A stretch of DNA of 64,000 nucleotides from Escherichia coli (GTDB taxonomy: Bacteria > Pseudomonadota > Gammaproteobacteria > Enterobacterales > Enterobacteriaceae): the NCBI RefSeq assembly GCF_048403405.1, contig NZ_CP183129.1. One strand, 5' to 3'. Each line of letters begins with the position of its first letter. Position 1 is the stretch's first letter. Position numbers: made by a program. Shown here piece after piece: positions 61,701 to 64,000 of the stretch.

Positions 61701-64000
61701 GCTGATATTTGAGCGTATAACAGTGTTATACAGTGGTATACTGTATGGATATTACTTACTGATATGGTCTTTGCAATGAGCAAATCTAATCTGATCGCGT
61801 TCCGCATCCCATCTGAATTGCAGGATGAGTTTAATCGGTCTGTTCTCGCTTCTGGAGGAGATAAAACCTCTTGGCTTGTTGATGCGATTCGCATGAAGCT
61901 GGGGCAGCCGGAAAAGTCTATTGATTCACGAATGCTTGGGCTGGTGGAGCGCATGGAAAAAGCCGCTGCGTCGCTTATTGCCGGAAAGCCGAACATCCCA
62001 CCAAAACCATATAACGAAACGGCAGTTATAAAGATCATTGCCGATACCATCCAACAGGGATTTGATAATGGGCGTGTGATAGCTGAACGGATCAATGAAG
62101 CAGGCTATCAAACAAAAGCTGGTAAAGCGTGGGATAAAGATATTTACAGCGCGTGGAAGCGTCAGGGAAGCAATGCTGAAAAGTTAAAAGCGGTGATTGA
62201 TTGTAAGGTCAGCGTATAAACATGAGTGCCCATTGGAAAGCTGCTTGGGCTAATACCTTTATACACCATCAGGTGGTGACGATAGGTGAGGATCAGACAT
62301 GAAAGGCAGAACGCCACACATTGAACATCAAGCCAACCACTTCTCGGATGTTCGCAATGAGATGATTGCCATTCGCGGTGATATGCACGGAATGGAGCGT
62401 CGCCTAGCAGATAAGATGGACGAGAATCAAAAGTGGATCATCGTCCTGTTGATTTTATCAATTCTTATCCCGCTACTTATCGCATTGGTCACAAAATGAA
62501 TATCCAATGTGTATGCTGTCGATGCTACGCGCGCGTACTTGTCGCAAAATATCAGGCAAAGGCCAGATTCAGAACGTCGTGATAATCACCAGCACAACAT
62601 GAGATGTCATGTAACGCGATTGATCACACCAGATACATGTGATTGGTGTACCCGCATAAAACATCGTCATAGCGCGTCCTGTGCGCATATACGCCGATAA
62701 TCAACACATCACCACCACTCTGTCTTATGTAGAGAACAGTTTTATGGTGCTCCCCGCCATCGTGTGCGTACTGGTCGGACGCAGTTGCAAAATTTTTTGC
62801 AACTGATACCCCTCGCGCGCGTACTGGTCACGAAATTGGTGTTTTGCTGTGGCAGTGATATCAGAAAAATCTTCCTGTTTCACATAAAGAGGATATGCGC
62901 GTACTGTAACGGCCCCATCAACGGGGATCGGATTTGAAATCCCGACCCAAGCTATGTACCAAATGCCATGTCTTGGATATATGATGATTGCCATTCTAAA
63001 CAAAGCTAAAGGGAGGGTTGGTGTGAATGCTCAGGCTGTCATCATGGTTTTCCTTGGTCTGATTGTCGCAAAACTATATCCAGACTGGTGGAAAGGGGCA
63101 TTAGCAACTGTCGCCATCTATTTGCTTTTATCCGTCGTTAAGCGATCGTTCGTTAAGACCGTAAATCAAGCAAAACGTTTCTCATTTAAGAATTTAATAA
63201 ACTATATTACTGGGCTTATTTTTTGCCTTTCAATTTTGATCGCTTCAGCTTTTTTGCCCGTATCAATGGCTAATTTTTTTGGCGCACCATATGAGGTAGG
63301 TTATCTATTCTCTGTTTTTTGTCTTGTTCTTTCCCTTCTTTACCTATGGATGAGAGCAAAGAACAAAAATTAGCCATCCATGGCTAACCAGTTATTGAGC
63401 TTCTTTTTGTGATGCCTGTGCGACTCTGGTGAGCGATTGTGTGACCGTACTGATCGCTCTGTCATATGCTGTGCTACCTTTTGGCGTATTTGCCAGACGT
63501 AACAAGGCATTTCGTATAACAGGGGTTTCGTATGCCTTCGCTGCTCCGCCTACGGCACCAGCAGCAGGAACAACAAACGCAGCCGTTTTTAGCATCCCCG
63601 CTAATACTGCTGCGTTTATGATGCCACCACCAACTAACAATCCATAAAGCTGCTGACCATTTAAGTTTTGAACGTTCGCTTTTGCCGCGTGTCTTGTATC
63701 GTTGAGGTATTTAATAACGCCGTCCAGTTCCTTCCCATGTACGCCTTTAAAGAAAGTTGCTGATTGCTTCCTGTTCCGGTGTAACGCATTAATAAACTTC
63801 TCAACACTGATATTTCCAGACGGATCAGTCGCCTTATCTACAGCATTCTGAACTATGGCTGCTCGTGCGTTTTGCCTACCATTGTCATCCAGAAGCCTGT
63901 AAAGCTGAGAACGTTCTGATGGGCTTTGGCTAAAAACGAGTTTTGTTACATCCTCAGGCGTGGCCTTGCCGCTGGCTATTGCCTTTTGAACGCGCGTTCT

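What the first reader, a model, noticed from the sequence alone, without database searches (positions are those of the whole stretch)
62299..63373. Cassette of two small membrane proteins (tail-anchored 66 aa and multi-TM 139 aa) inside the phage-like element
These sit between the regulatory region and the structural gene, a position where prophages often carry morons such as superinfection-exclusion, abortive-infection or holin-like genes. Neither has a recognisable domain. The tail-anchored topology (polar N-terminus, single C-terminal TM) is typical of exclusion or lysis-control proteins.
Basis: inference. Interest (0 to 1): 0.4.

Follow-up and report, generated by a model that had tools for sequence, protein, structure and literature searches.

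The report
Two independent membrane-protein cargo genes on satellite
Two real but unrelated small membrane-protein genes sit in separate swap-in slots of an E. coli phage satellite, and the larger one occupies exactly the slot where related elements carry SieA, a protein that blocks phage DNA entry, so it is a testable candidate for a new exclusion protein.

Summary
Both ORFs are real, conserved genes under purifying selection, but they are not one cassette. The 66-aa gene (62299-62499) encodes a tail-anchored protein of phrog_6324, a sub-threshold relative of XhlA. The "139-aa" ORF is over-extended: the conserved gene starts at GTG 63023, giving a 116-aa protein with four predicted TM helices.

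The element is an EcCIMP1-like phage-inducible chromosomal island (PICI) that carries P22-type ejection-protein genes. It is not a prophage.

In all 20 intact contexts examined, the 116-aa gene lies tail-to-tail, about 17-29 bp (18 bp here), from a gp16 ejection-protein gene. That is the sieA position of phage P22. Sibling islands have the same upstream 0.5-kb segment, ribosome-binding site and GTG, and 98% identical gp16. There the slot holds a true SieA homolog, present in 103 E. coli genomes. The 66-aa slot holds Abi genes in sibling islands.

The 116-aa family shows no detectable homology to SieA or to anything else annotated.

The two genes assort independently: they occur together in only 28 of 5426 genomes.

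Best reading: two moron or defence hotspots. The 116-aa protein is a candidate non-homologous analogue of SieA. Its function is unproven.

The parts
61217..61504 (-). PerC-family regulator gene. It marks the regulatory end of the island.
   Evidence: Pfam PerC, E = 3e-33. PGAP annotation.
61541..61661 (.). Divergent control region. It holds GTTGGTTCA three times in tandem on the + strand and three times on the - strand at 21-bp spacing.
   Evidence: All 6 matches in the 64-kb window fall here; 0.63 are expected by chance.
61776..62219 (+). 147-aa gene with a ribbon-helix-helix-like N-terminus. It is probably the first gene of the operon that includes the 66-aa gene.
   Evidence: PGAP start. 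The N-terminal sequence pattern and a weak phrog_30270 hit at E = 4e-4. No terminator-like site was found before 62299. The RHH assignment is inference; BLASTP shows no similarity to Mnt.
62299..62499 (+). Cargo slot 1: gene for a 66-aa tail-anchored membrane protein (phrog_6324, XhlA-like).
62500..63022 (.). Conserved non-coding segment that ends in the Shine-Dalgarno (63011-63017) of the slot-2 gene. It has five direct GCGCGTACTG repeats (62531, 62672, 62764, 62817, 62897) and a perfect palindrome at 62782-62805. It is the presumed expression platform for slot 2.
   Evidence: Present in 544 of 5426 genomes at 95-99% identity. Repeats. Indels break the 92-aa minus-strand ORF. No Rfam match. 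No phage DNA match.
63023..63373 (+). Cargo slot 2, the sieA position: gene for a 116-aa protein with four TM helices and a KLYP motif.
63368..63389 (-). Terminator-like hairpin followed by a T-run for the gp16 operon. It overlaps the stop codon of the 116-aa gene.
   Evidence: centroid structure.
63392..64000 (-). 3' part of the P22 gp16-type ejection-protein gene. The gene runs off the window and converges on slot 2 with an 18-bp gap.
   Evidence: phrog_770 and phrog_29117 hits. 701-aa gene in L001. 30% identical to P22 gp16, E = 1e-51.

Best explanation
The region holds two separate accessory (moron) slots of an EcCIMP1-like phage-inducible chromosomal island. The slots flank a conserved 0.5-kb non-coding segment.

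Slot 2 is the counterpart of the sieA locus of P22-like phages, and here it carries a 116-aa inner-membrane protein with four TM helices. I propose that this protein is made from the resident island (or from P22-like prophages that carry the same gene). I propose that it blocks DNA delivery by incoming P22-like phages at the inner membrane. It would do so by interfering with the gp20/gp16 ejection-protein conduit, as SieA does, although it is not homologous to SieA.

Slot 1 carries a 66-aa XhlA-like tail-anchored protein, probably co-transcribed with the upstream RHH-like regulator gene. Its homologue in P22-like prophages lies in the mnt operon, so it is most likely another resident-state membrane factor with a defence or exclusion role.

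Shown: gene reality, the corrected start, synteny, slot equivalence and non-homology to SieA.
Inferred: membrane localisation, expression state and the exclusion activity itself.
For: 1. In P22, gene 16 and sieA are convergent, 22 bp apart. Here the gp16 gene and the 116-aa gene are convergent, 18 bp apart.
2. That arrangement holds in all 20 intact contexts examined, down to 28-38% protein identity. These include complete P22-like prophages of Yersinia and E. coli with mnt/arc/ant.
3. Sibling island a15 has the same upstream segment, RBS and GTG, and a 98.3% identical gp16. There the slot holds a 204-aa SieA homologue. BLASTP to P22 SieA gives E = 8e-8 with the RYPGEA motif. phrog_7745 'SieA-like' is its only PHROG hit. 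That allele is in 103 genomes.
4. Other occupants of the slot are also envelope proteins: a lipoprotein in EcCIMP1 and NC101, and a variant 4-TM protein in G3X16-2.
5. The prototype island EcCIMP1 confers superinfection immunity against its P22-like helper phage Kapi1. No known defence system was found in it (PMC11773190).
6. SieA acts at the inner membrane, and escape mutations map to the C-terminal parts of gp16 and gp20 (PMC10883804). The gp16 C-terminus is encoded directly next to the slot.
7. Both genes are under purifying selection.
8. Slot 1 holds Abi-family genes in sibling islands. The 111-aa homologue of the 66-aa protein lies in the mnt operon of P22-like prophages.
Against: - There is no sequence or profile similarity to SieA. 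BLASTP gives E = 0.77. hhalign gives probability 0.16%. The conserved cytoplasmic FxRYPxEAxxFNK motif is absent.
- No functional data exist for either family.
- No consensus sigma-70 promoter was found on the + strand upstream of 63023, so expression from the resident island is unproven.
- The EcCIMP1 immunity phenotype comes from an island whose slot holds a different gene.
- Position alone cannot prove function. The P22 region between gene 16 and gene 9 also carries non-exclusion genes (mnt, arc, ant).
- The structure model has low confidence (pLDDT 66.6), and the fold search was uninformative.
Confidence: 0.42

Rival explanations
1. The 116-aa protein, the 66-aa protein or both are defence or lysogenic-conversion membrane proteins that act by another route. 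Examples would be an abortive-infection membrane effector (RexB-like depolarisation) or a host-physiology factor. They would not block ejection-protein-mediated DNA entry.
For: - The slots behave as general cargo hotspots with unrelated occupants: Abi genes, a lipoprotein and a coiled-coil protein.
- The 116-aa protein is a small protein with four TM helices, like RexB (my own knowledge of lambda RexB).
- PADLOC has no match, so any defence role would be uncharacterised.
Against: - There is no partner sensor gene next to it.
- There is no Pfam or PHROG hit to RexB, SieB or Abi families.
- The invariant tail-to-tail linkage to gp16 across 28-100% identity is not expected for generic cargo.
Confidence: 0.27
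2. The 116-aa protein serves the element's own gp16. It could be a producer-cell immunity or chaperone factor that stops the membrane-active ejection protein from damaging the cell before packaging, or it could tune ejection-protein function.
For: - Linkage to gp16 is strict.
- The variant 4-TM protein of G3X16-2 is paired with a different gp16 C-terminal type.
Against: - The same 98% identical gp16 is paired with a SieA homologue instead in 103 genomes, so this gp16 does not need the 116-aa protein.
- The gene is transcribed against the late operon.
- Roughly two thirds of sequenced P22-like phages lack a sieA gene, so their gp16 does not depend on SieA (PMC10883804).
Confidence: 0.1
3. Holin, antiholin or lysis-control proteins. 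The 66-aa protein would act like PBSX XhlA as a holin partner.
For: - Sub-threshold XhlA hits occur in 11 of 17 family members.
- There is a weak phrog_689 'holin' hit at E = 0.024.
- XhlA is needed together with XhlB and XlyA for PBSX lysis (PMC5589764).
Against: - No holin, endolysin or spanin gene is present in the island.
- In P22-like prophages the homologue lies in the mnt operon, far from the lysis cassette.
- In Mannheimia lambdoid phages an XhlA-domain gene likewise sits next to cI (PMC4553209).
- The window protein itself gives no XhlA hit.
Confidence: 0.06
4. The ORFs are spurious or decaying remnants with no function.
For: - All copies are annotated 'hypothetical'.
- A few truncated copies exist (P0015, P0019).
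- The 139-aa reading frame was over-called.
Against: - dN/dS is 0.12-0.25 at dS of about 0.9-1.6.
- Intact orthologues occur in four genera and in IMG/VR.
- Start codon and RBS are conserved.
Confidence: 0.03

Closest known systems
Phage P22 SieA (superinfection exclusion A; phrog_7745, Pfam PF26849), types A-C of Leavitt et al. 2024 (PMC10883804)
   Same: - Same genomic position: immediately downstream of and convergent with ejection-protein gene 16.
- Both are small multi-pass predicted inner-membrane proteins.
- Both are carried by P22-like prophages.
- In sibling islands the 116-aa gene is exchanged for a true SieA homologue at the same start codon.
   Different: - No detectable homology.
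- The FxRYPxEAxxFNK motif is absent.
- 116 aa with two TM hairpins, against 164-200 aa with a long loop between TM1 and TM2.
- Its most conserved motif (KLYP) is predicted at the periplasmic face, whereas the SieA motif is cytoplasmic.
- Its function is untested.
Bacillus subtilis PBSX XhlA (Pfam PF10779)
   Same: - The 66-aa family has the same architecture: an N-terminal coiled-coil-like region, an ENQKW-type junction and a single C-terminal TM helix.
- 11 of 17 family members give XhlA hits. The best is 29.6 bits with a full-length alignment.
   Different: - All hits fall below the Pfam gathering score of 34.7.
- The window protein gives no hit.
- It is not next to a holin or endolysin gene. 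It lies in an RHH/mnt-type operon of Gram-negative elements.
EcCIMP1, a PICI of E. coli MP1 mobilised by the P22-like phage Kapi1 (Pick et al. 2025, PMC11773190)
   Same: - The window's island has the same gene order and shares several identical protein accessions. The order is int, HTH, ant, DUF4222, ash, primase (TOPRIM/DUF927), DUF2824, gp7-, gp20- and gp16-like genes, then PerC.
- It also has the same conserved 0.5-kb segment.
   Different: - EcCIMP1 is integrated at tRNA-Thr near proA, whereas this island lies between dinD and yicC.
- EcCIMP1 carries neither gene of the finding. Its slot 2 holds a 232-aa lipoprotein on the other strand, and its gp16 is of a different type.
Other small inner-membrane injection blockers, such as T4 Imm and HK97 gp15 (from my own knowledge; not tested here)
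   Same: They are small phage- or prophage-encoded membrane proteins that stop DNA entry after adsorption.
   Different: They are unrelated in sequence, genomic context and target phages. No comparison was run beyond the negative Pfam and PHROG scans.

Membership tests
SieA (phrog_7745 / PF26849) | Sequence or profile homology to SieA types A-C | tested here: not met
   BLASTP against P22 SieA gives E = 0.77. hhalign of the family alignment A5 against SieA alignment A6 (types A and B) gives probability 0.16% and E = 0.38. There is no phrog_7745 hit, whereas P22 SieA scores 9e-109 and the a15 protein 4e-4. HMMER against 1.84 billion representatives found only the protein's own family.
SieA (phrog_7745 / PF26849) | Conserved C-terminal cytoplasmic motif FxRYPxEAxxFNK (PMC10883804) | tested here: not met
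   The C-terminus is ...LLYLWMRAKNKN and contains no RYPxEA. The a15 slot protein does have NRYPGEA.
SieA (phrog_7745 / PF26849) | Position between gene 16 and the immI/tailspike region, convergent with gene 16 | tested here: met
   P22 layout. Window and 20 other contexts.
SieA (phrog_7745 / PF26849) | Inner-membrane protein with 3-4 TM helices | tested here: inconclusive
   Four hydrophobic helices and the positive-inside pattern are predicted. Localisation was not measured.
SieA (phrog_7745 / PF26849) | Blocks DNA injection of P22-like phages, with escape mutations in gp16 and gp20 | not testable with these tools
   This needs plating, potassium-efflux and escape-mutant experiments.
XhlA (PF10779), for the 66-aa protein | Score at or above the Pfam gathering threshold (34.7 bits) | tested here: not met
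   The window protein gives no hit. The best relative scores 29.6 bits. 11 of 17 members hit at E <= 0.05.
XhlA (PF10779), for the 66-aa protein | Short protein with a helical N-terminal part and a single C-terminal TM helix | tested here: met
   TM helix at residues 47-65 of 66. Alignment A3.
XhlA (PF10779), for the 66-aa protein | Encoded beside a holin and an endolysin gene (xhlA-xhlB-xlyA) | tested here: not met
   No lysis genes are present in the island or next to the homologues.
Holins (either protein) | Match to a holin profile and location in a lysis cassette | tested here: not met
   The only hit is phrog_689 at E = 0.024 for the 66-aa protein; the 116-aa protein has none. The Foldseek holin hits have E >= 0.55. 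There is no lysis cassette.
EcCIMP1-like PICI (the element that carries the genes) | Integrase, AlpA-type HTH, TOPRIM/DUF927 primase, PerC, and no capsid, tail or lysis genes; gene order and proteins shared with EcCIMP1 | tested here: met
   L001 against the MP1 locus L020. Helper dependence of this particular copy was not tested.
Known anti-phage defence systems (PADLOC-DB) | Match to any PADLOC protein model | tested here: not met
   There were no matches at E <= 1 for the four ORFs scanned: the 66-aa, the 139-aa, the 92-aa minus-strand and the RHH-like proteins.

The most novel reading that the evidence does not exclude
The 116-aa KLYP protein founds a fourth, non-homologous class of exclusion proteins that target the ejection-protein conduit. 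It would be exchanged with SieA at start-codon precision on a fixed expression platform shared by EcCIMP1-like satellites and P22-like prophages. Cargo of this slot would then be the unidentified source of the superinfection immunity reported for this satellite family. The satellites would also carry both their own ejection proteins and a matching blocker of incoming ones.
Probability: 0.35. Interest if true: 0.6.

Novelty: new variant of a known kind. Interest (0 to 1): 0.5.

Why it matters
SieA is the only characterised blocker of the P22-type DNA-delivery conduit, and about two thirds of sequenced P22-like phages lack it (PMC10883804). A non-homologous protein in the same slot would offer a second probe of how gp16 and gp20 cross the inner membrane.

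It would also give a concrete candidate class for the unexplained superinfection immunity of EcCIMP1-type satellites, in which PADLOC and DefenseFinder found nothing (PMC11773190).

The slot structure has practical value too. A conserved 0.5-kb platform, found in 10% of complete E. coli genomes, sits between two variable cargo positions that hold SieA, Abi and unknown membrane proteins. That makes it a compact place to mine for new anti-phage genes.

Tried and rejected
- Pfam, NCBIfam, PADLOC and PHROG scans of the 116/139-aa protein gave nothing meaningful.
- tblastn of the 139-aa protein against 50,697 phage genomes found no match.
- Exhaustive HMMER against 1.84 billion representatives returned only the protein's own family, 7 proteins in all.
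- The AlphaFold2 model is a low-confidence four-helix bundle (pLDDT 66.6). Foldseek against BFVD found nothing better than E = 0.55. No further fold searches were run because the model is weak.
- PDB sequence searches were negative.
- The 92-aa minus-strand ORF at 62725-63003 and the 63-aa ORF at 62509-62700 in the gap were considered as missed genes. I rejected them: neither has a family hit, the minus-strand ORF is broken by 1-2-bp indels and a 53-bp deletion in relatives, and the substitutions seen in the plus-strand ORF show no third-position bias.
- Rfam found nothing in 60500-64000.
- Blastn of the gap against phage genomes found nothing.
- The consensus promoter scan found no + strand promoter upstream of 63023, so the promoter of slot 2 remains unlocated.
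- The RHH-like 147-aa protein shows no BLASTP similarity to a P22-like Mnt. The Mnt analogy is positional only.
- Literature searches found no paper linking satellites with ejection proteins by that phrase. The EcCIMP1 paper calls them 'DNA transfer' proteins.

Full report
**Observation.**
The 66-aa ORF is at 62299-62499 (+), as reported. It has a GAGGA Shine-Dalgarno 6 nt upstream and a single hydrophobic helix at residues 47-65.

The 139-aa ORF (62954-63373) is the longest reading frame, but it is not the gene.
- Among diverged copies, similarity starts only at AAGGGAGGG-N5-GTG, that is at GTG 63023.
- Homologues at 36-38% identity begin with ATG at the equivalent codon, MN(A/G/Y)Q.
- The product is therefore 116 aa. 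PGAP aa.
- It has four hydrophobic helices. There are 9 K/R in the second loop and the C-tail, against 2 in the other two loops. This implies N-in/C-in. AlphaFold2 gives four helices at low confidence (pLDDT 66.6).

**Both are real genes.**
- The 116-aa gene is in 228 of 5426 complete E. coli genomes. It also occurs in Yersinia, Edwardsiella and Salmonella and in 13 IMG/VR contigs. dN/dS is 0.12-0.14 at dS of about 1.2-1.4 against the Yersinia copy.
- The 66-aa gene is in 175 genomes, as two alleles of 66 and 73 aa. It belongs to phrog_6324 (E = 3e-15), has homologues in Citrobacter, Leclercia and Klebsiella phages, and shows dN/dS of 0.15-0.25.

**Context.**
The window is E. coli chromosome (ligB-yicG-dinD), followed by an island.
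- The full island, seen in the one record whose match is 100% identical (L001), runs as follows: integrase, HTH, antirepressor, ash, TOPRIM/DUF927 primase, then homologues of P22 genes 14 (DUF2824), 7, 20 and 16.
- Then, on the other strand, come the 116-aa gene, the 66-aa gene and a 147-aa RHH-like gene, followed by PerC.
- This matches EcCIMP1 of strain MP1 in gene order, and several protein accessions are identical.
- EcCIMP1 is a PICI mobilised by the P22-like phage Kapi1. It adds superinfection immunity by an unknown mechanism, and PADLOC and DefenseFinder found nothing in it (PMC11773190).
- The element is therefore a satellite, not a prophage.

**The 116-aa gene sits in the sieA slot.**
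- In P22, sieA is convergent with gene 16, 22 bp away. Here the 116-aa gene is convergent with the gp16 homologue, 18 bp away. A terminator-like hairpin for the gp16 operon overlaps its stop codon.
- This pairing holds in every intact context examined: Yersinia and E. coli P22-like prophages, the Edwardsiella island, three metagenomic relatives at 36-38% identity and 13 IMG/VR loci. The one exception is an island remnant in O111 that has lost gp16.
- In sibling island a15, the upstream 0.5 kb, the Shine-Dalgarno and the GTG are the same, and gp16 is 98.3% identical. The ORF after that GTG encodes a 204-aa SieA homologue. BLASTP to P22 SieA gives E = 8e-8 with NRYPGEA. Its only PHROG hit is phrog_7745 'SieA-like'. 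That allele is in 103 genomes.
- Other occupants of the slot are a lipoprotein (EcCIMP1 and NC101) and a variant 4-TM protein. The variant keeps only TM1 and KLYP and is paired with a different gp16 C-terminus.

**Not a SieA homologue.**
- BLASTP gives E = 0.77 and hhalign gives probability 0.16%. There is no phrog_7745 hit, and the FxRYPxEAxxFNK motif of PMC10883804 is absent.
- The local Pfam copy lacks PF26849: P22 SieA itself gave no hit. The Pfam negative is therefore not a test of SieA membership.
- Exhaustive HMMER found only seven family representatives.
- The family's most conserved run is KLYP at the predicted periplasmic end of TM1.

**The 66-aa protein.**
- 11 of 17 family members give sub-threshold XhlA (PF10779) hits. 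The best is 29.6 bits against a cut-off of 34.7, and the window protein gives none.
- Its 111-aa homologue lies in the mnt operon of P22-like prophages, in the order mnt, a 121-aa zinc-ribbon-like protein, the 111-aa homologue and a 107-aa protein, convergent with gp16.
- In sibling islands its position is taken by Abi-family genes on the other strand.
- There are no lysis genes nearby, so a PBSX-like holin-partner role (PMC5589764) is unlikely.
- Mannheimia lambdoid phages also place an XhlA-domain gene next to cI (PMC4553209).

**Not a cassette.**
The 523-bp spacer is in 544 genomes, more than carry either gene. Only 28 genomes have both genes together. The 60 evenly spaced rows break down as follows:

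| Pattern | Rows |
|---|---|
| Both genes | 3 |
| Spacer plus the 116-aa gene only | 13 |
| 66-aa gene plus spacer, with other slot-2 cargo | 12 |
| Spacer with neither gene | 24 |
| 116-aa gene without the spacer (the P22-like prophage form) | 6 |
| Other partial matches | 2 |

The commonest swap junction in that sample falls at window 63026-63028, just after the start codon.

**Mechanism.**
Best reading (confidence about 0.4): the 116-aa protein is an inner-membrane blocker of the gp20/gp16 DNA-delivery conduit of incoming P22-like phages. It would be analogous to SieA, whose escape mutations map to the C-terminal parts of gp16 and gp20 (PMC10883804). The 66-aa protein is a second resident-state membrane factor of unknown action.

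Rivals are listed separately:
- another defence or conversion role;
- a helper or immunity factor for the element's own gp16, weakened because the same gp16 is paired with SieA elsewhere;
- lysis control;
- junk, contradicted by the selection data.

**Novelty.**
The island family and SieA are both known. What appears to be undescribed:
- the 116-aa family;
- its equivalence to the sieA slot;
- the start-codon-precise exchange with SieA;
- the presence of a SieA homologue on PICIs. Leavitt et al. reported sieA only in P22-like prophages in the cases they examined.

Function is untested, so I rate this a new variant of a known kind, of moderate interest.

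Noticed in passing
window 62500-63022: A 523-bp unannotated segment is conserved at 95-99% identity in 544 of 5426 E. coli genomes, more than carry either flanking gene. It holds five direct GCGCGTACTG repeats; 5 of the 10 matches in the window fall within 375 bp. It also holds a perfect palindrome, CAGTTGCAAAA-TT-TTTTGCAACTG (62782-62805). It runs up to the start codon of whatever gene fills slot 2. Its role is unknown; it could be a promoter platform, an iteron or origin, or a packaging site.
   Followed up: partly
window 61541-61661: GTTGGTTCA occurs three times in tandem on the + strand and three times on the - strand at 21-bp spacing, between the divergent PerC and RHH-like genes. 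These are all 6 matches in the window (0.63 expected by chance), so the array looks like operators or iterons. Further palindromes lie at 61717-61750, just upstream of the RHH-like gene.
   Followed up: partly
L011 7502-8116 (E. coli a15), plus 102 other genomes: A 204-aa SieA homologue, annotated 'hypothetical protein', sits on EcCIMP1-like PICIs rather than in P22-like prophages. The SieA study reported sieA only in P22-like prophages in all the cases it examined.
   Followed up: partly
window 63392-64000 and L001 17193-22029: The satellite carries its own homologues of P22 genes 14, 7, 20 and 16 (ejection proteins) but no capsid, tail or lysis genes. The EcCIMP1 paper calls them possible packaging or 'DNA transfer' proteins. 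A satellite that supplies its own ejection proteins may be changing the injection specificity of helper virions, or their sensitivity to SieA.
   Followed up: no
L019 4452-4808 and L033 3501-3857: A variant slot-2 protein of 118 aa shares only TM1 and the KLYP motif with the 116-aa family (28% identity). It is paired with a gp16 that has an unrelated C-terminus. This hints at co-variation between the slot protein and the gp16 C-terminal type, although linkage alone could explain it.
   Followed up: partly
L020 6632-7330 (EcCIMP1) and L012 7534-8232 (NC101): In the experimentally studied EcCIMP1, slot 2 holds a 232-aa lipoprotein (lipobox LAGC) with no PHROG hit. It is an obvious untested candidate for the reported superinfection immunity.
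   Followed up: no
L008 7395-8681 (P22-like prophages L008-L010): The mnt operon there reads mnt, a 121-aa CxxC...CxxC zinc-ribbon-like protein, the 111-aa XhlA-like protein, and a 107-aa N-anchored coiled-coil protein (phrog_5962) in the sieA position. This is another uncharacterised occupant of the slot.
   Followed up: no
window 60532-61216: About 0.7 kb between dinD and PerC has no convincing gene and presumably contains the island end or att site. In the record whose match is 100% identical (NZ_OZ040716) an IS66 element lies between yicG and PerC and no dinD gene is annotated there.
   Followed up: no
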